Shown: piece after piece, positions 2,593 to 10,003 of the stretch
How the letters are laid out: every line of letters starts with the position of its first letter
Position numbering within the stretch: the stretch's first letter is position 1
IMG/VR virus record: IMGVR_UViG_2690316002_000013
Strand: one strand, 5' to 3'
Length of the DNA stretch: 11,067 nucleotides
DNA from: a virus
Taxonomy: Duplodnaviria > Heunggongvirae > Uroviricota > Caudoviricetes
Position numbers and translations under genes: made by a program
The notes under the pieces: generated by a model
What the model saw: the letters and a program-made list of their open reading frames with translations, nothing else
Told to the model about the DNA's origin: nothing
The model's database searches: none

Positions 2593-2795
2593 CGGGTCCT
2601 TCCTGGAATTATGGACCCGTTACGGGGCGGCGACCTCGCGGTTTTTATCTGTTTATGAAAATTTTCCGGCAAAAGTCAGATCCGTTCTTCTTCTCTGTAA
2701 CAGACTGTTTAACAATGAAAATATTAAAAAAAGAAAGGATCTGACACGAGGCATTTTAGCCAGAAAATGCCATTATCAGATCCTTTCTCATTTTT
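2593..2795 (+). other. Lambda-type cohesive-end site cos-1: cosQ-like arm, cosN (GGGCGGCGACCT, 2625-2636) and cosB with R3/R2/R1-like repeats (GATCCGTTCTTC 2679-2690; GAAAGGATCTGA 2733-2744; AGATCCTTTCTC 2778-2789)
   Basis: 2619-2700 closely follows the phage lambda left end as I recall it (GGGCGGCGACCTCGCGGGTTTTCGCTATTTATGAAAATTTTCCGG...CCGTTCTTCTTC). Orientation is cosN then cosB toward higher coordinates. Confidence 0.8.
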
Positions 2796-2815: not shown

Positions 2816-3358
2816 TTACTCGCCTTTCTTCTGTAGCAACTTTTCCGGTACGTTTCCGGTTGTTTCTTTCAAGTAATCAGTCAGTATCTGTGGGAGGTTG
2901 TCGGCAACTCTGGCACTGGCATTACAGGCTTTAACCACTTCCCTTTTAAGCCTATCCAGCATGGCGGGGGTAATCTGTGGGAAGCTCCTTTGCATAGTAA
3001 GCGGGAGGCTGTCCATGATTGATGAAATCTGACTCGCCAGCTTTGAAAGCGCGTACAGGCAAAACTCAGTATCAATCACGTCACCGCGATCGCGCTCGTT
3101 TTTAAGTTCCTGCGCCTCCGCCTGTGCTGTCAGTAATCTGATCCTGACTCGTAAGAGTTCATCATCATCAATATCGCCTTTGTCGTTTGTAAGCTGGCTA
3201 ATTGCATTGTTAACCCTATTGTCTATCACGCTGGCAACATCATAAAACGCCTCACGGCCTTTACGTTCAACGGGAGTCACTCCCCACTTGTCGAACGCTG
3301 TCGCACTTACACGGCAGCTTTTCGCCATGTTTTTTTTGTTCATCAGGTGCGATTTCAT
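2816..3358 (-). CDS. Terminase small subunit, lambda Nu1 family (180 aa ORF; true start may be the internal Met at 3341-3343)
   Basis: Translation aligns by eye with lambda gpNu1: LLTAQAEAQELKNERD vs LTRAQADAQELKNARD, and TEFCLYALSKLASQISSIMDSLPLTMQRSFP vs TAFCTFVLSRIAGEIASILDGLPLSVQRRFP. Sits directly downstream of cos-2, the canonical cos-then-Nu1 arrangement. No strong Shine-Dalgarno at either candidate ATG. Confidence 0.9.
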   Translation of the reverse strand: MKSHLMNKKNMAKSCRVSATAFDKWGVTPVERKGREAFYDVASVIDNRVNNAISQLTNDKGDIDDDELLRVRIRLLTAQAEAQELKNERDRGDVIDTEFCLYALSKLASQISSIMDSLPLTMQRSFPQITPAMLDRLKREVVKACNASARVADNLPQILTDYLKETTGNVPEKLLQKKGE

Positions 3359-3534
3359 TAATACACCAACTTAATTACTGCTTCAGGTTGGTGTATTGTT
3401 TGCATCTTTCCCTTTTTATTCATAAAGATAGATCAAACAACGAAACCACCACCACCCCCCTGAAAAGGCTCATAAATAGCGAAAAACCGCTAGGTCGCCG
3501 CCCCGTAACGGGCCATAATTCCAGGAAGGACCCG
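3359..3534 (-). other. Second lambda-type cos (cos-2), inverted: cosN complement AGGTCGCCGCCC at 3492-3503, cosQ-like arm to 3534, degenerate cosB and a 9-bp-stem hairpin (3364-3397) just upstream of terS
   Basis: Reverse complement of 3485-3534 matches 2593-2641 with only two differences (one 1-bp indel, one mismatch). Similarity to cos-1 and to lambda fades inside cosB. Confidence 0.75.
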
Positions 3535-3989: not shown

Positions 3990-4325
3990 TTATCGGGCCA
4001 GCGGCTGAACGGATACGCCGGAACCCGCAAAGGCGGCGCATTTTTTCGCATCGGTGTCGACGCTCTCAGGCCAGTTAACGGCGGCAATATTGAATATCCC
4101 CGTCTTGTAACACTGTGCTGATTTCTGCTTTGACGTGCCCACAGGGTACGAGGTCAGATAAACAGCCTTGCCAGATTCCTGACCATCCCACGGCTTAAAC
4201 TCGCCATTGTCTGCCAGCATCAGCGGGGTAAATTCCTGAATAACGCCAGCATCAGCGGCAAAATGTACCAACGTCGTGGATACCTGCTGACTGCCTGCAA
4301 ATAACTCAATGTATGGAGTGTCCAT
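3990..4325 (-). CDS. Head decoration protein, lambda gpD family (111 aa)
   Basis: Aligns with lambda gpD: TPLMLADNGEFKPWDG vs TPLMLDTSSRKLVAWDG, CYKTGIF vs FYKSGTF, KKCAAFAGSGVSV vs KKRTAFAGTAISIV. SD GGGGGGA upstream, 12 bp after the capsid gene stop. Confidence 0.9.
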   Translation of the reverse strand: MDTPYIELFAGSQQVSTTLVHFAADAGVIQEFTPLMLADNGEFKPWDGQESGKAVYLTSYPVGTSKQKSAQCYKTGIFNIAAVNWPESVDTDAKKCAAFAGSGVSVQPLAR

Positions 4326-4337
4326 AGAATCCCCCCG

Positions 4338-5393
4338 TTAACCAATTTTGACGGTAACAAATTTGCGAATATCTGCCGGTACCGGCTGCGGTGCACTGTG
4401 TGTCTGCACGTACTCAATCGCCGGATCGCCGTCCTCAATCCAGTTTTTCGGGTAAAACATGTTTTGTGTTGCGCCCGTTCTTACCGCTTCCTGATCCATT
4501 ATCGCACCATAGGCCACCAGCCCTTTATTGTTGGTGTTACCCAGGACCAGCAAATCAGGCTCAAGGAAATATTTTTCGGTACCATCGCTGTCAGTGTATT
4601 TGCCGGAATAGACGATAAGGGCCAGATCACCAAGATAGCCTTTAAAGCTCACCACTTCGCCCAGGTTTTTACAGGCCAGTTCGGCGGCGGATTCTGAACC
4701 ACGGGAAAGATCGTACAGCTCACGGAATTTTTTAAAGCTGCCTAATGTGCGCCATACCTCAGCGCCCATAATCATGACGTTTGCGGGGCAACCAGCCTGA
4801 TCAGCATAAAGCTCGATGTCATAGATTGGGTCGTGCATGTCTTTATCCTGCTCGGACCATTTTTTACCCTTGGCCTGCTCTATGATGCAGTTTTCCGGTA
4901 TTTTCCAGTCGATTTCATAGCGTTCTATGCCTTCGCCCTCAATGATGTTTTTTCCGGTCGTTACCGCATTCACCGCCAGCCATTCCACGCGTGCCTTAAT
5001 GGCGTTTATCTGGCGGCGCATGTTGCCAGTAATCAGGCGCATACGGCGATAGGTAGGGTCGTTAAGCTGTGCCGGATCTTCTCCAGCCATGCGCATGATG
5101 GTTTTCGTTGGATCGATTTCGTGCTTTGGCTTCATGTAGCCAGGTTTGATTGTGCTGGTTTCGTACCCTTTATCGCGCTGAACCTGGCTACCCACCATAG
5201 GCGAACAAAACGCCGACATGGTGACTTCTTCAATGTCCAGGGTATCCAGCATGATGTTTTGCGTGCTGAATGTCGCCACGTTCGGGAAAAACAGCGTGGT
5301 AAACAGAGGGCTGAATTTAAAATCCGCAATATCCCCGCGATTCAGGTACATGAAAAGCTGGTTAGTGTTAAGTGCCGTTGCTTTGCCTGCCAT
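4338..5393 (-). CDS. Major capsid protein, lambda gpE family (351 aa)
   Basis: Extensive by-eye alignment with lambda gpE (FKFSPLFTTLFF vs FKFDPLFLRLFF; PGYMKPKHE vs PGYVKPKHE; DPTYRRMRLI vs DPAYRRRRII; VSFKGYLGDLALIVYSGKY vs VSYKGMYGDVAIVVYSGQY; LVLGNTNNKGLVAYG vs MVLGNTQARGLRTYG; YPKNWIEDGDPA vs YPKNWVTTGDPA). Confidence 0.95.
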   Translation of the reverse strand: MAGKATALNTNQLFMYLNRGDIADFKFSPLFTTLFFPNVATFSTQNIMLDTLDIEEVTMSAFCSPMVGSQVQRDKGYETSTIKPGYMKPKHEIDPTKTIMRMAGEDPAQLNDPTYRRMRLITGNMRRQINAIKARVEWLAVNAVTTGKNIIEGEGIERYEIDWKIPENCIIEQAKGKKWSEQDKDMHDPIYDIELYADQAGCPANVMIMGAEVWRTLGSFKKFRELYDLSRGSESAAELACKNLGEVVSFKGYLGDLALIVYSGKYTDSDGTEKYFLEPDLLVLGNTNNKGLVAYGAIMDQEAVRTGATQNMFYPKNWIEDGDPAIEYVQTHSAPQPVPADIRKFVTVKIG

Positions 5394-5599
5394 TATTCAC
5401 CCCCATAATTTTTATGCATCCCAAGCGCCGCAAGTAAATAAGAGCGTACAAGTGAACCTATCGACGGCTCCGGCGTCATCAGCGGATCCAGTCCAGCCGC
5501 AACGCCAGCTTCATAGTTTTTTTTGTGGCGCTGCTTGAGCACCTCCACGATTTCGGGGCTTATGTACACCGAAACACCGCCTTTTTTCTCTTCAGCCAT
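5393..5599 (-). CDS. Small ribbon-helix-helix-like protein (about 68 aa from Met at 5597-5599), translationally coupled to the capsid gene
   Basis: SD AGAGGA precedes the ATG at 5597-5599. Its stop overlaps the capsid start (TAATG). The segment KGGVSVYISPEIVEVLKQ looks like an RHH beta-strand plus helix; this is an inference from the pattern, not a search. Confidence 0.55.
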   Translation of the reverse strand: MAEEKKGGVSVYISPEIVEVLKQRHKKNYEAGVAAGLDPLMTPEPSIGSLVRSYLLAALGMHKNYGGE

Positions 5600-5631
5600 A
5601 GTAAGAAATTCCTCTTCGACTAAAAAAATCA

Positions 5632-5690
5632 TAACTGGATGTTTATCCAGTCCTGATTATAATCAGAATTGCATTTTATGCAATGATATT
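5632..5690 (-). promoter_or_regulatory. Candidate promoter/operator region of the RHH-capsid operon with three palindromes: CTGGAT-gttt-ATCCAG (5635-5650), TGATTATAATCA (5654-5665), TTGCAT-ttt-ATGCAA (5669-5683)
   Basis: Seen in sequence. TATAAT lies inside the central palindrome on both strands, and TTGCAT/ATTGCA sits 15-16 bp away as a possible -35. Confidence 0.45.
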
Positions 5691-5764
5691 GAGTTATGTT
5701 GCAAATTATGAAATGATTATCCCGATCACGAACGCCAGTGCATCCAAAAACCTCATATGCAAAA

Positions 5765-5802
5765 GCCCGATAAGAACCCTCTGACCTTATCGGGCTTTTT
5801 TT
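5765..5802 (+). terminator. Plus-strand intrinsic terminator (GCCCGATAAG ... CTTATCGGGC then T6)
   Basis: 10-bp GC-rich stem followed by TTTTTT on the plus strand only, although every annotated gene nearby is on the minus strand. Confidence 0.55.
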
Positions 5803-5808
5803 GGGCGC

Positions 5809-5830
5809 AAAAAAGCCGGATTGCTCCGGC
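5809..5830 (-). terminator. Intrinsic terminator after the 74-aa gene (GCCGGA-gcaa-TCCGGC then T6 on minus strand)
   Basis: Second copy of the AAAAAAGCCGGATTKCTCCGGC module. Confidence 0.6.
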
Positions 5831-5850
5831 TATGTGTGCTGTGTGCTGGC

Positions 5851-6075
5851 TCAGTCTCTGATCTCTTTCAGAAATTCTATCAATGCATCTATCTGTTCAG
5901 GATTTACCGCCAGCATTTCACCGGATAGAGCACATCTCACAAAACCATGCTGATCCTTTTCAATCAGTGCGCCCGTCTCCAGGAATGCGCGGTAATCATT
6001 GATGCTCATCGTCTCCATGTTGTCAGCATGGTATTTATCACGCTGTTTTAATATCTCATCAAATTTCATCGGCAT
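5851..6075 (-). CDS. Hypothetical protein (74 aa), stand-alone unit bounded by terminators
   Basis: Intact ORF with SD AGAGGA 9 nt before the ATG. No family recognised. Confidence 0.55.
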   Translation of the reverse strand: MPMKFDEILKQRDKYHADNMETMSINDYRAFLETGALIEKDQHGFVRCALSGEMLAVNPEQIDALIEFLKEIRD

Positions 6076-6171
6076 TGTTTTTTTCCTCTGTTGTGTCTGT
6101 TTGTTTCAGATAGTAACTATGCCTGACCGTGACGAAAACCCGGTAATGCGCCATACCGTTTCAACTGGTGC

Positions 6172-6194
6172 AAAAAAAGCCGGATTTCTCCGGC
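6172..6194 (-). terminator. Intrinsic terminator after the PerC-like gene (third copy of the GCCGGA-tttc-TCCGGC module with A/T tract)
   Basis: Hairpin 6179-6194 preceded on the plus strand by A7 (U-tract on the minus strand), 8 bp after the stop. Confidence 0.6.
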
Positions 6195-6201
6195 TGTTTG
6201 A

Positions 6202-6474
6202 TTAGCTGTCCTGGTAATTGCGCCATATTTCATCACCAGCACCATCTATACCCATTTCGGCATAAGTGCGATCGACTGCCTTTTTCAGGTCTCCGAAATT
6301 ATCCGGCGGCTCCGGTGCCCTCTGTGCCTTCCTTGAACATTCCAGCCGTCGCATCGTGATGTGATGCCGTTCCTTGTCTGTCTCCACCAGCTGCATGACT
6401 TCACCCCATCGCGCCGCCGCCCTCCGGTAAAAGCCTTTCGCCTCCAGTTCCTCCGCTATGCGGTCATGTACCAT
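6202..6474 (-). CDS. PerC-family transcriptional regulator homologue (about 90 aa from Met at 6472-6474)
   Basis: N-terminal MVHDRIAEELEAKGFYRRAAARWGEVM fits the conserved PerC/Pch signature as I recall it. Strong SD GGGGGTGA upstream. The longer 130-aa ORF in the track would overlap the SSB gene. Confidence 0.75.
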   Translation of the reverse strand: MVHDRIAEELEAKGFYRRAAARWGEVMQLVETDKERHHITMRRLECSRKAQRAPEPPDNFGDLKKAVDRTYAEMGIDGAGDEIWRNYQDS

Positions 6475-6484
6475 CGTCACCCCC

Positions 6485-6895
6485 TCAGAACGAAATATCA
6501 TCACCGTAAGAGTCATCGCCTCCCGCTGGTGGCTGATTACCCTGTGTGCCTGTGGTTTTGCGTCTGTTCCCGCCTGGACGTGCCGCGCGGGCACTGATTA
6601 CGCTGTCTGCGATAACCTGCCAGCCCTGCCGCGTTTCTCCGTTCTGTCCGGTCCACTGGCTTACCTGCATCGTGCCGGATACGCTGGCAACATCGCCTTT
6701 TTGATGTTTAGCCAGGAAGTCGGCCTGTTTGCCAAATGCGATGACCGATAACCATAACGTCGCCTGTCCGTCCTGTGCCTGGCTGCATGGCAAAGATACC
6801 GCCATACGCGCCAGCGTCATCGGTGTGCCCTTGCTGGTCTGTTTTACCTGCGGGTCGTCCACCAGCCGCCCGTAAGCGGCTATCTGTGCCGTCAT
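6485..6895 (-). CDS. Single-stranded DNA-binding protein (SSB family, 136 aa)
   Basis: OB-fold-like core (LWLSVIAFGKQADFLAKHQKGDVASVSGTMQVSQWTGQNGETRQGWQVIADSV), Gly/Pro/Gln-rich linker and acidic tail ...GDDSYGDDISF resembling the canonical SSB DDDIPF tip. SD GGAGAGG upstream. Confidence 0.8.
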   Translation of the reverse strand: MTAQIAAYGRLVDDPQVKQTSKGTPMTLARMAVSLPCSQAQDGQATLWLSVIAFGKQADFLAKHQKGDVASVSGTMQVSQWTGQNGETRQGWQVIADSVISARAARPGGNRRKTTGTQGNQPPAGGDDSYGDDISF

Positions 6896-7143
6896 AATTC
6901 CACCTCTCCGGTTTTAACGTTGATGGTTGTTACCTGTTCCGCTTCGGCAATCTCCCGTTCTGTCAGCGTGGCAAAGTTTGCCGCCGCCGTGGTCATGAAT
7001 GCGCTTATCAGGTCGGGATGTTCCTTCGCGTATCCTTCCCGCGTGTGGCGGTCTATCGTTCTGATTGCCACCTTTAAGGTGTGCTCAGTCATGTCTAACG
7101 CTTTATATTTTGGCTCTGTTCTGTCTCTGCGTTTTTGGGTCAT
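6892..7143 (-). CDS. Hypothetical small protein (about 83 aa from ATG at 7141-7143), translationally coupled to ssb
   Basis: Its stop overlaps the ssb start (ATGA). The track's longer ORF begins at a GTG. No family recognised. Confidence 0.5.
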   Translation of the reverse strand: MTQKRRDRTEPKYKALDMTEHTLKVAIRTIDRHTREGYAKEHPDLISAFMTTAAANFATLTEREIAEAEQVTTINVKTGEVEL

Positions 7144-7149
7144 TTCTCG

Positions 7150-7345
7150 CAACCTCTCACTTTTTCGCCTCACTTTTTCAAGCGTCTCACTTCGTCGCAG
7201 TTGGGATTTTCGGTTTTTCTATGTGTGTGTTTCATAAGTATTTTTTTACCCCTCACTTTTGAGGATGTATACAGGTCGAAAAGTGAGGGAGAGCGGGCTA
7301 ATTTTGGCCCTCTTTCTATCCCCCTCGCTTTTGCTCCTCACTTTT
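7150..7345. repeat. Iteron array, candidate replication origin: about 7 copies of CTCAC(T)TTT (7156, 7169, 7186, 7252, inverted at 7279-7288, variant CTCGCTTTT at 7324, 7337) plus an AT-rich stretch (7214-7248)
   Basis: Counted directly in sequence. Includes a convergent pair CCTCACTTTT / AAAAGTGAGG around GTATAC. Lies immediately 3' of the RepA-like gene; the last iteron overlaps its stop codon. Confidence 0.6.
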
Positions 7346-8385
7346 ATAGCGGCGCTACATCATCCCCATCGATACGAATAACCCCATCTTTTTCCAGCTT
7401 GTACAGCCAGCGCCGGAAGTTTTTCATTTCATACCCCAGCTTTTTCATGTCATCACGTAACAGCGGGATCGTGCACTTGTCGCCGTTCTGTGTGCGTGAA
7501 CGGATGCACCCCCATAGCGCGGTATGGTTTTCCGTCTTGTTCCCTGCCTCCTCGATGCGCTCCAGTTCAACAGGAGGGCGCGGATCATCCACCACCACCA
7601 GCGACGTGATTAATTCACCGTCAGCGTCGGTAAAAAGCTCCACCACGCGTAAGTCATATGCGGCTTCTTTGAGTTCCTCCGCGTCCTTCATTTTGGTGCA
7701 TGAGATAACCAGCGCTTCGCTTCCTGCGTCCTCCCTGCGTATCCGGTATTCAGCATCCAGCGAAGCACGAAATGCACTGGAACCGCGCGCGCCTTTCGTC
7801 TCATCCTTGCCGGAATGGTGAACCACCAGCACCGTGGCCCCTGTGCGTCGTTTCAGTTCGTCACAACCACGGATAAACGCCCCATATCACGGGAATCATT
7901 TTCATCATTCCCACCAAAGCAACGCGCCAGCGTATCCAGAATAATCATGCGTACAGGTTTACCCGTTTCCCGCTCCACCTGACGGGCAGCGATAACCATT
8001 TCATCAACATCAAGCGGGGCAGCCGGAAAGATGGGGCGGTTTACCAGATACAGATTTTTCACCTGCTCATCGTGCACAACCTCCCAGGCTTTTACACGAC
8101 GCGGAACACCTATACCGCCTTCACCAACCACATAGAGAACCGCACCATGTGCAACCCTGCGGCCTCCCCACTGGCGACCAGTGGCAACATGGCACGCCCA
8201 CGATCCGGCAAGGAATGATTTATAGGACCCGCTAGCCCCGTATATGCTGCATAGCGATACCGCCGGAATAATCCCCTTAACCACGTAATCCAGTTGCGTG
8301 TCGTATCCGGTAGATCCAACGCTCATCGGTAGCGTGGTTTTTCGCTGGTGGTTTTTTTCTTCCGCCGGCTCTTTCCCGCGCACCC
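7344..8385 (-). pseudogene. RepA-like replicative ATPase (AAA_25/RecA-fold, DnaB-like helicase family) with C-terminal winged-helix-like domain; reading frame broken by a 1-nt frameshift near 7872-7877, 5' end running into the N gap
   Basis: Walker A GASGSYKS, Walker B-like MIILDTLA and the LVVHHSGKD motif lie in two different frames (tracks 7853..8623 and 7344..7832). One extra A in the run at 7875-7877 would give a continuous ...DMGRFIRGCDELKRRTGATVLVVHH... . A possible ATG start is at 8324-8326 but has no SD. Confidence 0.6.
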
Positions 8386-8616
8386 NNNNNNNNNNNNNNN
8401 NNNNNNNNNNNNNNNNNNNNNNNNNNNNNNNNNNNNNNNNNNNNNNNNNNNNNNNNNNNNNNNNNNNNNNNNNNNNNNNNNNNNNNNNNNNNNNNNNNNN
8501 NNNNNNNNNNNNNNNNNNNNNNNNNNNNNNNNNNNNNNNNNNNNNNNNNNNNNNNNNNNNNNNNNNNNNNNNNNNNNNNNNNNNNNNNNNNNNNNNNNNN
8601 NNNNNNNNNNNNNNNN
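8386..8616. other. Assembly gap (231 N)
   Basis: Run of n characters. Truncates the RepA-like gene on one side and the pin gene on the other. Confidence 0.99.
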
Positions 8617-9063
8617 GGTACAAAGTCCGAAAGGCCGGGACTGAAAAAACTGCTCAGGACATTATCGGCAGGTGACACGCTGGTGGTCTGGAAACTGGAC
8701 CGGCTGGGGCGCAGTATGCGGCATCTTGTCGTGCTGGTGGAGGAGTTGCGCGAACGAGGCATCAACTTTCGTAGTCTGACGGATTCAATTGATACCAGTA
8801 CCCCAATGGGGCGCTTTTTCTTTCATGTGATGGGTGCCCTGGCTGAAATGGAGCGTGAACTGATTGTTGAAAGAACAAAAGCTGGACTGGAAGCTGCTCG
8901 CGCACAGGGACGAATTGGTGGACGTCGTCCCAAACTTACACCAGAACAATGGGAACAGGCCGGACGATTAATTGCATCAGGAGTTCCTCGCCAGAAGGTG
9001 GCGATTATCTATGATGTTGGTGTGTCAACTTTGTATAAGAGGTTTCCTGCAGGGGATAAATAA
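8617..9063 (+). CDS. pin: Serine recombinase / DNA invertase of the Pin-Gin-Hin-Cin family, 3' part only (N-terminal ~35-40 codons lost in the gap)
   Basis: In-frame translation from 8617 reads GTKSERPGLKKLLRTLSAGDTLVVWKLDRLGRSMRHL...FFFHVMGALAEMERELIVERT...GRIGGRRPKLT..., closely matching e14 Pin as I recall it. Followed by mcrA as in e14. Confidence 0.9.
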   Translation, partial: GTKSERPGLKKLLRTLSAGDTLVVWKLDRLGRSMRHLVVLVEELRERGINFRSLTDSIDTSTPMGRFFFHVMGALAEMERELIVERTKAGLEAARAQGRIGGRRPKLTPEQWEQAGRLIASGVPRQKVAIIYDVGVSTLYKRFPAGDK

Positions 9064-9169
9064 AGTTAAAGACACTTTGTGTACAAAAGAAAGTAAAACA
9101 ACAGCAACTTGTTGCAATTTTATCAATAAAAGTAGTATTGTCGTGAAAAATTGATTAAAGATTAATATT

Positions 9170-10003
9170 ATGCATGTTTTTGATAATAATGGAATTGAAC
9201 TGAAAGCTGAGTGTTCGATAGGTGAAGAGGATGGTGTTTATGGTCTAATCCTTGAGTCGTGGGGGCCGGGTGACAGAAACAAAGATTACAATATCGCTCT
9301 TGATTATATCATTGAACGGTTGGTTGATTCTGGTGTATCCCAAGTCGTAGTATATCTGGCGTCATCATCAGTCAGAAAACATATGCATTCTTTGGATGAA
9401 AGAAAAATCCATCCTGGTGAATATTTTACTTTGATTGGTAATAGCCCCCGCGAGATACGCTTGAAGATGTGTGGTTATCAGGCTTATTTTAGTCGTACGG
9501 GGAGAAAGGAAATTCCTTCCGGCAATAGAACGAAACGAATATTGATAAATGTTCCAGGTATTTATAGTGACAGTTTTTGGGCGTCTATAATACGTGGAGA
9601 ACTATCAGAGCTTTCACAGCCTACAGATGATGAATCGCTTCTGAATATGAGGGTTAGTAAATTAATTAAGAAAACGTTGGGTCAACCCGAGGGCTCCAGG
9701 AAACCAGTTGAGGTAGAAAGACTACAAAAAGTTTATGTCCGAGACCCGATGGTAAAAGCTTGGATTTTACAGCAAAGTAAAGGTATATGTGAAAACTGTG
9801 GTAAAAATGCTCCGTTTTATTTAAATGATGGAAACCCATATTTGGAAGTGCATCATGTAATTCCCCTGTCTTCAGGTGGTGCTGATACAACAGATAACTG
9901 TGTTGCCCTTTGTCCGAATTGTCATAGAGAATTGCACTATAGTAAAAATGCAAAAGAACTAATCGAGATGCTTTACGTTAATATAAACCGATTACAGAAA
10001 TAA
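9170..10003 (+). CDS. mcrA: 5-methylcytosine-specific (type IV) restriction endonuclease McrA, HNH family, 277 aa
   Basis: Translation matches my recollection of E. coli K-12 McrA along its whole length; C-terminal HNH/zinc motif (CENCG...HHVIPLSSGG...CPNCH). AT-rich gene typical of horizontally acquired DNA. Confidence 0.95.
   Translation: MHVFDNNGIELKAECSIGEEDGVYGLILESWGPGDRNKDYNIALDYIIERLVDSGVSQVVVYLASSSVRKHMHSLDERKIHPGEYFTLIGNSPREIRLKMCGYQAYFSRTGRKEIPSGNRTKRILINVPGIYSDSFWASIIRGELSELSQPTDDESLLNMRVSKLIKKTLGQPEGSRKPVEVERLQKVYVRDPMVKAWILQQSKGICENCGKNAPFYLNDGNPYLEVHHVIPLSSGGADTTDNCVALCPNCHRELHYSKNAKELIEMLYVNINRLQK

What the first reader, a model, noticed from the sequence alone, without database searches (positions are those of the whole stretch)
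7150..7345. Iteron-type origin directly downstream of the RepA-like gene
About seven copies of CTCAC(T)TTT in direct and inverted orientation, with a convergent pair around GTATAC and an adjacent AT-rich stretch, lie between the RepA-like stop and the next gene. This is the classic layout of an iteron origin bound by the adjacent initiator, and it shows the element carries its own replicon.
Basis: partly seen in the sequence, partly recalled or inferred. Interest (0 to 1): 0.55.

Follow-up and report, generated by a model that had tools for sequence, protein, structure and literature searches.

The report
Satellite-island replication origin beside its helicase
The repeats are real and are almost certainly the replication origin of a known E. 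coli phage-satellite island (a PICI), read by the DNA-binding tail of the neighbouring helicase gene; this is an expected feature of such islands, not a new kind of element.

Summary
The 200-bp gap between the rep stop codon (7344-7346) and the next gene holds five exact and two one-mismatch copies of CTCACTTT. There is no exact copy elsewhere in the window, and 0 of 300 shuffles reach this repeat count. The layout is a direct array, a 30%-GC spacer, a convergent pair around GTATAC, then a second direct array that overlaps the rep stop.

The island is EcCIRM12579, a catalogued phage-inducible chromosomal island (PICI) between ycfD/roxA and phoQ. PICI origins are already described as iteron sets flanking an AT-rich region just 3' of rep. 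The sister island EcCICFT073, whose ori was tested experimentally, has the same backbone but a different helicase and different iterons. So the helicase core, winged helix and ori form one swapped cassette.

In about 80 relatives from about 30 genera the layout is kept. The iteron core changes together with one residue at the start of the predicted recognition helix: N goes with CTCAC, H or K with CCCAC, and RKS with CGCAC.

Differences from characterised cases are a RecA-fold (RSF1010 RepA-like) helicase, no DnaA boxes, and a frameshifted, gap-truncated rep in this assembly. Verdict: a new member of a known kind, of modest interest.

The parts
7146..7204 (+). Left iteron array. Three clear direct copies sit at 7156-7164 (CTCACTTTT), 7169-7177 (CTCACTTTT) and 7186-7194 (CTCACTTCG). 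They are flanked by degenerate copies at 7146-7154 (CTCGCAACC) and 7196-7204 (CGCAGTTGG), where relatives carry full copies.
   Evidence: copies; alignment with 8 relatives shows five copies in this array
7205..7249 (.). AT-rich spacer and candidate unwinding region. It holds the least stable 30-bp duplex (7219-7248) and the blocks TGTTT and T-run/TTTTTAC that are conserved in E. coli.
   Evidence: GC 0.30; -32.3 kcal/mol against mean -41.3, sd 3.4; invariant columns
7250..7289 (.). Central element. Convergent iterons 7252-7260 (+) and 7279-7287 (-) surround TATACA (7267-7272), which is invariant in E. coli relatives and kept as a TATA(TA)C core in other genera. Extra half-sites TTGAGG (7259-7264) and a degenerate GTCGA (7275-7279; GTGAG in relatives) lie inside.
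   Evidence: I2, 11/11 complementary; same element in 6 genera; half-sites co-vary: GAG/GGG and GTGAG/GTGGG; hairpin -9.7 kcal/mol, z -3.7
7310..7346 (+). Right iteron array. It has a degenerate copy at about 7310-7318, then 7324-7332 (CTCGCTTTT) and 7337-7345 (CTCACTTTT). The last copy overlaps the rep TAA stop at 7344-7346.
7347..7544 (-). C-terminal winged-helix domain of Rep (residues about 401-466), the predicted iteron reader. Asn442, the specificity-correlated residue at the N-cap of helix 3, is encoded at 7419-7421.
   Evidence: H-H-H-beta-beta, pLDDT above 90; local matches are to winged-helix domains only; co-variation; residues 401-466 travel with the ori, independently of residues 1-400
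7344..8386 (-). rep, a RepA-family (AAA_25, RecA-fold) helicase-initiator of 466 aa in intact copies. Here it is frameshifted by a 1-nt deletion in a C5 run at about 7880, and its 5' end is lost in the N-run 8387-8617.
6892..7143 (-). First gene downstream of the ori (83 aa, phrog_1231, function unknown). Its first ~24 codons belong to the swapped rep-ori cassette, and the rest is shared with EcCICFT073 (73% aa identity). An SSB gene follows at 6485-6895.

Best explanation
Window 7146-7346 is the vegetative replication origin of an EcCICFT073-type phage-inducible chromosomal island, the one catalogued as EcCIRM12579, which sits between roxA/ycfD and phoQ.

Proposed mechanism. After helper-phage induction, AlpA-driven rightward transcription produces Rep. 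Rep is a 466-aa protein with three parts: an N-terminal domain shared with other PICI Reps, a RecA-fold hexameric helicase core related to RSF1010 RepA, and a C-terminal winged helix. The winged helix binds the 9-bp iterons (C)CTCACTTTT, and residue 442 at the start of the recognition helix reads the base pair just before CAC (Asn with T:A; His or Lys with C:G). Rep molecules bound to the two direct arrays and to the convergent sites then assemble into helicase rings. These rings open the DNA at the adjacent 30%-GC spacer and/or at the conserved TATACA between the convergent sites, with no separate loader and no DnaA. The island's own SSB, encoded two genes downstream, would coat the opened strands, and host primase and polymerase would do the rest.

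What is shown here: the repeats, their statistics, the conserved layout, the cassette swap, the predicted winged helix and the residue-base co-variation. What is inferred: binding, melting, ring loading and the order of events.
For: 1. The repeat cluster is far beyond chance and confined to this gap.

2. The island identity is settled. It shares the att site and proteins of EcCIRM12579 in Table S1 of Fillol-Salom 2018, and the ori is 199/200 identical.

3. That paper states that in Gram-negative PICIs the region immediately 3' of rep is the ori, with two iteron sets flanking an AT-rich region. It also shows rep- and ori-dependent plasmid maintenance for EcCICFT073. Qiao 2022 gives the same definition for SaPIs, with a C-terminal winged helix reading the iterons.

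4. EcCICFT073 has the same backbone and the same downstream gene (73% aa identity). It carries a D5/SF3-type Rep and TCTACC iterons at the same position. DNA homology between the two islands is lost exactly over window 7072-8378, which is the helicase core, winged helix, ori and first ~24 codons of the next gene.

5. In 68 loci from about 30 genera of Enterobacterales, 59 have 5-12 copies of the best repeated 9-mer in the 332 bp after the rep stop (seven have 2-4), against about 2.8 in control windows. The same left array / AT-rich / convergent pair around TATA(TA)C / right array layout was drawn for six of these loci and seen in a seventh Klebsiella element.

6. Iteron class follows the helix motif without exception: K-N-[F/M] with CTCA[C/T] in 33/33, K-H-[F/L] with CCCAC in 14/14, K-K-F with CCCCCAC in 24/24, and R-K-S-F with GCCGC[A/G][C/T] (GCCGCGC in L039) in 8/8. 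Among 12 E. coli Reps, residue 442 is the only one of 466 alignment columns that separates the two iteron types.

7. Three different helicase-core lineages each occur with both iteron types, while residues 401-466 always match the ori.

8. AlphaFold models residues about 401-466 as a winged helix with pLDDT above 90, and residue 442 is the N-cap of helix 3.

9. A 16,971-bp circular Klebsiella record is a PICI-like element with this rep type and the same ori layout.
Against: - No experiment on this rep type or this ori was found in the searchable literature. Function is transferred from EcCICFT073 and SaPIs, whose helicases belong to other superfamilies.
- The winged helix and the ori are physically adjacent, so some co-variation would arise from linkage alone. 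The single-residue signal rests on related, non-independent sequences.
- Only one clear inverted iteron exists in the window, whereas SaPI origins are described as having at least two on each side facing opposite ways.
- The Foldseek match to winged-helix folds is not statistically significant (best E 0.03).
- In this assembly rep is frameshifted and truncated, so this copy may be inactive.
- Five of the 68 loci gave no usable iteron consensus: L079 (4 copies, the same CCCCCAC core but too few for a consensus), L081 and L082 (no clear array), and L038 and L068, for which the script printed a consensus but could not place it on the core anchor.
Confidence: 0.85

Rival explanations
1. The repeats are a transcriptional control region with no origin function. 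They would act as operators or a roadblock, bound by Rep or another island protein, to set expression of the downstream ssb-perC-capsid operon.
For: The array lies between two co-directional genes of a unidirectionally transcribed island. The leftmost copies sit 3-13 bp upstream of the next gene's ATG and overlap a GAGG Shine-Dalgarno-like sequence. The central palindrome can form a hairpin (-9.7 kcal/mol, z -3.7).
Against: No sigma-70-like promoter and no minus-strand terminator is found in 6800-7700. The downstream operon is conserved in EcCICFT073, while the repeats are replaced together with the helicase and winged helix. The equivalent region of EcCICFT073 was needed for plasmid maintenance. 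The AT-rich spacer and the layout match published PICI/SaPI origins. A regulatory side-role in addition to origin function is not excluded.
Confidence: 0.06
2. It is a real PICI origin by descent but a dead relic in this genome. rep is broken by the frameshift, so the element can no longer replicate on its own.
For: The window lacks one C of a C5 run at about 7880 relative to all best E. coli hits, which splits rep into two ORFs. The 5' part of rep runs into an N-gap followed by unrelated e14-like DNA. Some iterons are degenerate here where relatives have perfect copies.
Against: Homopolymer indels and N-gaps are typical draft-assembly artefacts. The ori is 199/200 identical to intact islands, and 369 E. 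coli records match at 99% or better (636 cover at least 80% of the query); the best hits are annotated with an intact helicase RepA gene. This rival concerns activity in one strain, not what the feature is.
Confidence: 0.25
3. It is a DNA-packaging site (cos or pac) recognised by the island's or the helper's small terminase.
For: Terminase small subunits often bind short repeated sequences, and the island encodes a TerS homologue.
Against: Two exact lambda-type cosN sequences (GGGCGGCGACCT) flank terS at 2625-2636 and 3492-3503, which is 3.6-4.5 kb away. This matches the two cos sites shown to function in EcCICFT073. The repeats co-vary with Rep, not with terS.
Confidence: 0.01
4. It is a classical plasmid-type iteron origin, in which a dedicated dimer/monomer initiator binds the iterons and recruits host DnaA and DnaB.
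For: There are direct repeats next to an AT-rich stretch and a gene named RepA.
Against: Rep has only an AAA_25 helicase domain plus a single winged helix, and no Rep_3-type domain. The iterons have a 9-bp core at 13- and 17-bp spacing rather than phased 17-22-mers. No DnaA box with up to 2 mismatches lies in 7144-7343. The ori lies downstream of rep, not upstream.
Confidence: 0.03

Closest known systems
EcCICFT073 rep-ori module (Gram-negative PICI; Fillol-Salom et al. 2018, PMC6092414)
   Same: It uses the same att site (ycfD/roxA-phoQ) and the same island backbone and gene order. The ori sits in the same gap between rep and the hypothetical-ssb-perC genes. It has short iterons in direct and inverted orientation around an AT-rich stretch. 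Even the N-terminal ~122 aa of Rep are shared.
   Different: Its Rep is a 584-aa D5_N/DUF5906/Pox_D5 (SF3-type) protein, and its iterons are (T)GTCTACC. Here Rep is a 466-aa AAA_25 RecA-fold helicase, the iterons are CTCACTTTT, and there is no detectable similarity in the C-terminal domains. Only the EcCICFT073 version was tested experimentally.
SaPI replication origins and Rep initiator-helicases (SaPI1, SaPIbov1, SaPI5; summarised in Qiao et al. 2022, PMC9371898)
   Same: The ori lies immediately downstream of rep and has 6-12 short iterons with an AT-rich region near the centre. Rep is both initiator and helicase, with a C-terminal winged helix that reads the iterons, and no separate loader is known.
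   Different: SaPI Reps are SF3 or SF6 (MCM-like) AAA+ helicases with 3'-5' polarity, and their iterons are penta- or hexanucleotides with at least two per side facing opposite ways. Here the core is RecA-fold (SF4-like), the two arrays point the same way, and a conserved convergent element around TATACA is added.
Satellite phage P4 alpha protein with ori and crr
   Same: It is a satellite of an E. coli phage. It has a multidomain replication protein whose C-terminal winged helix binds octamer repeats in the origin (own knowledge; P4 ori/alpha is mentioned).
   Different: P4 alpha carries a primase and an SF3 helicase and needs a second repeat cluster (crr) at a distance. Here no second cluster exists in the 19.5-kb locus, and only AAA_25 is detected.
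RSF1010 (IncQ) RepA hexameric helicase, PDB 1G8Y
   Same: It is the only solved relative by sequence (E 0.0055 over residues 150-321). It has the same Pfam AAA_25/RecA-fold core.
   Different: In RSF1010 a separate protein (RepC) binds 20-bp iterons and a separate primase (RepB') is needed. Here the origin-binding domain is fused to the helicase, and no RepC or RepB homologue is annotated in the island.

Membership tests
PICI/SaPI-type replication origin | Lies immediately 3' of the rep open reading frame | tested here: met
   The last iteron (7337-7345) overlaps the rep TAA stop (7344-7346), and the array fills the 200-bp gap to the next gene.
PICI/SaPI-type replication origin | Six to twelve short iterons | tested here: met
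   There are 7 clear copies of a 9-bp unit, and up to 10-12 when degenerate copies and half-sites are counted.
PICI/SaPI-type replication origin | [quoted passage not shown] | tested here: met
   The left array is 7146-7204, the 30%-GC spacer is 7205-7249, and the central and right sets are 7250-7346.
PICI/SaPI-type replication origin | [quoted passage not shown] | tested here: inconclusive
   Both arrays point the same way, and only one clear inverted copy (7279-7287) is present in the window. Relatives have two tandem inverted copies plus a half-site in the central element.
PICI/SaPI-type replication origin | Adjacent Rep is an initiator-helicase with a C-terminal winged helix that recognises the iterons | tested here: met
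   Rep has an AAA_25 helicase core and a predicted winged helix at residues about 401-466. Iteron class follows the recognition-helix motif in 79 of 79 scorable loci. Physical binding was not tested.
PICI/SaPI-type replication origin | Rep ATPase of the SF3 (D5-like) or SF6 (MCM-like) class, as in all characterised cases | tested here: not met
   The only Pfam hit is AAA_25. The closest solved structure is RSF1010 RepA, and no D5_N, Pox_D5 or MCM domain is found.
PICI/SaPI-type replication origin | Host element has PICI hallmarks (integrase, AlpA, one-way transcription, its own att site, about 11 kb) | tested here: met
   Intact copies L001 and L094 have int, an AlpA-family gene, all genes on one strand and the ycfD-phoQ site. 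The island is listed as EcCIRM12579. The window itself lacks the int-alpA end because of the scaffold gap.
PICI/SaPI-type replication origin | Rep- and ori-dependent autonomous replication | not testable with these tools
   This needs the plasmid-maintenance or induction assay. It has been done only for EcCICFT073.
Classical iteron plasmid origin (pSC101, F, R6K, RK2, P1) | Rep_3-type initiator with tandem winged helices and no helicase | tested here: not met
   Pfam finds only AAA_25 in Rep.
Classical iteron plasmid origin (pSC101, F, R6K, RK2, P1) | 17-22-bp iterons in regularly phased tandem array | tested here: not met
   The core is 9 bp, the spacings are 13, 17, 66 and 85 bp, and orientations are mixed.
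Classical iteron plasmid origin (pSC101, F, R6K, RK2, P1) | DnaA boxes in the origin | tested here: not met
   No TTATCCACA match with up to 2 mismatches lies between 5726 and 7359.
IncQ (RSF1010) replicon | Separate RepC iteron-binding initiator and RepB' primase alongside the RepA helicase | tested here: not met
   The helicase core is related, but no such genes are annotated in the 11-kb island. The DNA-binding domain is fused to the helicase.
P4-type satellite replicon | Second distant repeat cluster (crr) and a primase/SF3-helicase alpha protein | tested here: not met
   The only other exact copy in 19.5 kb is a single one outside the island, at L001 17571. No primase or SF3 domain is found.

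The most novel reading that the evidence does not exclude
This rep-ori cassette may define an uncharacterised class of self-loading initiator-helicase. In it, a RecA-fold (SF4-like, RSF1010-RepA-type) ring helicase is fused to a winged helix, and a single residue at the start of the recognition helix sets origin specificity (Asn for CTCAC; His or Lys for CCCAC; Arg-Lys-Ser for CGCAC). That would create replicon specificity groups, which recombination shuffles among PICIs of many Enterobacterales. The conserved TATACA between convergent sites would be where the rings are loaded.
Probability: 0.5. Interest if true: 0.45.

Novelty: new member of a known kind. Interest (0 to 1): 0.3.

Why it matters
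It confirms that the island next to phoQ in O157-type E. coli carries a complete PICI-style replication module, and it pins the cis-acting site to 200 bp. The island is PerC-encoding and, per Table S1, rdgR-encoding.

The comparative result adds something directly testable. The helicase core, origin-binding domain and ori behave as an exchangeable cassette, and one amino acid appears to set which iteron is read. That gives a simple route to predict which co-resident satellites share or avoid each other's replication proteins. It also offers a way to engineer orthogonal Rep-ori pairs, and a reason to examine an SF4-type helicase that may load itself without a loader.

It does not change the current picture of how satellites replicate.

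Tried and rejected
- Foldseek of the 162-aa model against the PDB gave nothing significant (best E 0.03). Only 60-70-residue local matches to assorted winged-helix domains appeared, so the fold call rests mainly on the predicted secondary-structure order.
- A PDB sequence search found only the RSF1010 RepA helicase core, and nothing for the C-terminal domain.
- BLASTP of the C-terminal domain against the EcCICFT073 Rep showed no similarity. The two origin-binding domains are therefore not demonstrably homologous.
- A DnaA-box scan found none in the ori.
- The promoter and terminator scan found no promoter. It found only two plus-strand terminator-like sites, at chance level.
- A search for a fragment copied from the text around the Fig. 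S4/S5 legends of the EcCICFT073 supplement (its identity was not checked; it may not be part of cos) gave no match. The lambda cosN 12-mer then located two exact sites around terS, which rejects the packaging-site idea.
- The search for homologous proteins with the 162-aa fragment returned only partial proteins. These were useful as an alignment for folding but not for family size.
- L081 and L082 showed no clear repeat array after rep, L079 had only four copies (same CCCCCAC core), and L063 ended too close to the contig end. These were left unexplained.
- I could not see Fig. 2a of Fillol-Salom 2018, so I cannot say whether this exact ori was already drawn there.

Full report
**What is in the sequence**

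The window starts with phoQ (1-1461, + strand). A run of minus-strand phage-like genes follows:
- terS (2816-3358)
- a head-decoration gene (3990-4325)
- a lambda-E-type capsid gene (4338-5393)
- perC (6202-6594)
- ssb (6485-6895)
- a small ORF (6892-7143)
- a RepA-family helicase gene that ends with TAA at 7344-7346

The finding lies in the 200-bp gap between the last two. Exact CTCACTTT occurs at 7156, 7169, 7252 and 7337 on the + strand and at 7280-7287 on the - strand. One-mismatch copies sit at 7186 and 7324. No exact copy occurs elsewhere in the 11 kb.

In the intact reference locus L001 (19.5 kb) there are six exact copies against 0.44 expected, and five of them lie in the gap. A motif-blind test gives six copies of the best 9-mer in 7140-7349. 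The 142 control windows give a mean of 2.3 and a maximum of 4, and no shuffle out of 300 reaches six.

- a direct array at 7146-7204
- a 30%-GC spacer at 7205-7249, which holds the least stable duplex of the neighbourhood
- a convergent pair with 11/11 complementary arms around GTATAC
- a second direct array whose last copy overlaps the rep stop codon

**Which element this is**

The region is 99-100% identical to a chromosomal island found in several hundred E. coli genomes (at least 99% identical in 369 records; the listed hits include many O157:H7 and other Shiga-toxin-type serogroups), where the gene is annotated 'helicase RepA family protein'.

The intact island has an integrase, an AlpA-family regulator, Icd-like genes, DUF4222, rep, ssb, perC, capsid, decoration and terS. 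All are on one strand, between roxA/ycfD and phoQ.

Table S1 of Fillol-Salom et al. 2018 lists exactly this island as the PICI EcCIRM12579: NC_017656.1 1438155-1449376, att gene ycfD-phoQ. I fetched it as L094. It encodes the same proteins, and its rep-downstream gap is 199/200 identical to window 7144-7343.

[quoted passage not shown] It shows that the EcCICFT073 rep-ori segment keeps a temperature-sensitive plasmid alive only when both rep and ori are intact. Qiao et al. 2022 give the same definition for SaPIs and add that Rep's C-terminal winged helix reads the iterons.

**Positional evidence from the sister island**

EcCICFT073 (L093) sits at the same att site with the same gene order. However, its Rep is a 584-aa D5_N/DUF5906/Pox_D5 protein, and its rep-downstream gap carries (T)GTCTACC repeats in both orientations.

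DNA homology between the two islands runs through the first ~122 codons of rep, disappears, and resumes at window 7071, inside the small downstream ORF. The downstream protein is 73% identical between the two islands.

The non-homologous block is window 7072-8378. It comprises the helicase core, the C-terminal domain, the repeats and the first ~24 codons of the next gene. The repeats therefore belong with the helicase, not with the downstream operon.

**Comparative evidence**

Eleven divergent E. coli relatives (73-90% identity) keep the layout position for position. They fall into two groups, in which every copy reads either CTCACTTTT or CCCACTTTT. The half-sites inside the central element change in step as well: GAG/GGG and GTGAG-AAA-GTGAG/GTGGG-AAA-GTGGG.

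Among the 12 Rep proteins, exactly one alignment column out of 466 separates the two groups. It is residue 442 in LGYEMK[N/H]FRRWL, with Asn for CTCAC and His for CCCAC. Three different helicase-core lineages each occur with both iteron types. Residues 401-466 always match the ori. For example, L003 and L004 are 99% identical over residues 1-400 but belong to different classes, while L001 and L002 are 61% identical over 1-400 but 100% over 401-466 and share a class.

A scan of one genome per species returned 80 loci. Of these, 68 had an intact Rep C-terminus and enough downstream sequence to analyse; they come from about 30 genera of Enterobacterales.
- The best repeated 9-mer in the 332 bp after the rep stop occurs 5-12 times in 59 of the 68 loci (2-4 times in the other nine), against about 2.8 in control windows.
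- Maps from Xenorhabdus, Kosakonia, Pantoea, Pectobacterium and Morganella show the same architecture: left array, AT-rich spacer, convergent pair around TATA(TA)C, right array ending at the stop codon.
- The consensus iteron sorts perfectly by the motif preceding the conserved aromatic-x-R/K-W of the last helix:
  - K-N-[F/M] gives CTCA[C/T] in 33/33 loci.
  - K-H-[F/L] gives CCCAC in 14/14 loci.
  - K-K-F gives CCCCCAC in 24/24 loci.
  - R-K-S-F gives GCCGC[A/G][C/T] (GCCGCGC in L039) in 8/8 loci.

The Asn-with-A:T and His/Lys-with-G:C pairings fit general amino-acid-base preferences. That point rests on my own knowledge and is an inference here.

**The protein**

Pfam finds only AAA_25 (residues 148-315). 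The only solved relative by sequence is the RSF1010 RepA hexameric helicase (E 0.0055).

An AlphaFold model of the last 162 residues, built from a 40-sequence alignment, has mean pLDDT 81 and above 90 for the last 60 residues. Its secondary-structure order is helix 101-115, helix 122-131, helix 139-148, then two short strands, which is a winged helix. Asn442 is fragment residue 138, the N-cap of the third (recognition) helix. Foldseek gives no significant hit, but the short low-rmsd matches are all winged-helix domains.

**Rivals**

- *Packaging site.* This is excluded in practice. Two exact lambda cosN sequences flank terS at 2625-2636 and 3492-3503, mirroring the two functional cos sites of EcCICFT073.
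- *Pure transcriptional operator.* This is unlikely. There is no promoter or minus-strand terminator signal, the repeats are swapped with rep rather than with the operon, and the homologous position in EcCICFT073 is functionally an ori. A secondary regulatory effect is possible, since the leftmost iterons abut the next gene's ribosome-binding site.
- *Classical plasmid iteron origin.* It fails three defining tests: no Rep_3 initiator, no long phased iterons and no DnaA boxes.
- *RSF1010 or P4 membership.* RSF1010 membership fails for lack of RepC/RepB. P4 membership fails for lack of a second repeat cluster and of primase/SF3 domains.

**Most likely mechanism**

The shown steps are listed above. 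The rest is inferred by analogy with SaPI Reps and viral initiator-helicases.

Rep's winged helices would occupy the arrays and the convergent sites, and this concentrates subunits that assemble into rings. DNA would open at the weak 7205-7249 spacer and/or at the invariant TATACA between the convergent sites. The island SSB would stabilise the opened strands, and host enzymes would complete replication.

The RecA-fold core predicts 5'-3' polarity, unlike the SaPI Reps. This has not been tested.

**Caveats for this window**

rep lacks one C of a C5 run at about 7880 relative to every close relative, which splits the ORF. Its 5' end runs into a 231-N gap, after which come an e14-like pin fragment and mcrA. 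This may be a draft-assembly artefact or a real lesion. The ori itself is intact.

**Verdict**

The feature is expected for a catalogued island, so its novelty is low: a new member of a known kind. Two points I did not find in the literature I could search. One is the RecA-fold helicase class fused to a winged helix. The other is the one-residue/one-base specificity pattern across about 80 loci, which is readily testable.

Noticed in passing
window 7876-7884: rep lacks one C of a C5 homopolymer relative to all best-matching E. coli genomes. This splits the 466-aa gene into ORFs 7344-7832 and 7853-8623. It could be a sequencing error or a strain-specific pseudogene.
   Followed up: partly
window 8387-10003: A 231-base N-run cuts the 5' end of rep. 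Beyond it lie a Pin-like invertase C-terminal fragment (8683-9063) and a 277-aa HNH protein that I recognised from memory as e14 McrA; no family or similarity search was run on either ORF (9170-10003). This is e14-type DNA rather than the int-alpA end of the island, so it is probably a scaffold join.
   Followed up: no
window 2625-2636 (+) and 3492-3503 (-): Two exact lambda-type cosN sequences (GGGCGGCGACCT) lie in inverted orientation, flanking the island's terS gene. They appear to match the two functional cos sites reported for EcCICFT073.
   Followed up: partly
L012 1107-1227 (E. coli O103 ML775): This locus has a natural 83-bp deletion inside the ori. It fuses the second full copy (CCCCACTTTT) of the left array to the first arm of the convergent pair and removes the AT-rich spacer. 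The RepA protein is identical to that of L007. It looks like recombination between iterons and would serve as a ready-made ori mutant.
   Followed up: partly
L014 (Xenorhabdus beddingii), about 230-330 bp beyond the rep stop: A second, partial ori-like module built from CCCAC-type repeats around ATATATACAG lies just beyond the CTCAC-type ori that matches the resident Rep. It may be a remnant of a replaced cassette.
   Followed up: no
L001 10580-10945 / L093 5742-6116; plasmid hits H76, H85: The N-terminal ~122 aa of the RepA-type Rep are shared (82% DNA identity) with the D5-type Rep of EcCICFT073, and also with 'primase-like DNA-binding' and DUF5906 proteins. This common N-domain of unknown function is joined to different helicase cassettes and always follows a DUF4222 gene.
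   Followed up: partly
L095 (CP018459.1, K. pneumoniae pKp_Goe_795-4, 16,971 bp circular): A record deposited as a plasmid is really a PICI-like element. It has an integrase, capsid, head-tail adaptor and terminase genes, a RepA-type rep (5081-6445) and GCCGCAC iterons in the same layout at 4880-5083. This suggests an excised episomal form.
   Followed up: partly
window 7144-7160: The leftmost iterons lie 3-13 bp upstream of the ATG (7143) of the next gene, and their complement supplies a GAGG Shine-Dalgarno-like sequence. Rep binding could therefore also affect translation or transcription of the downstream ssb operon.
   Followed up: no
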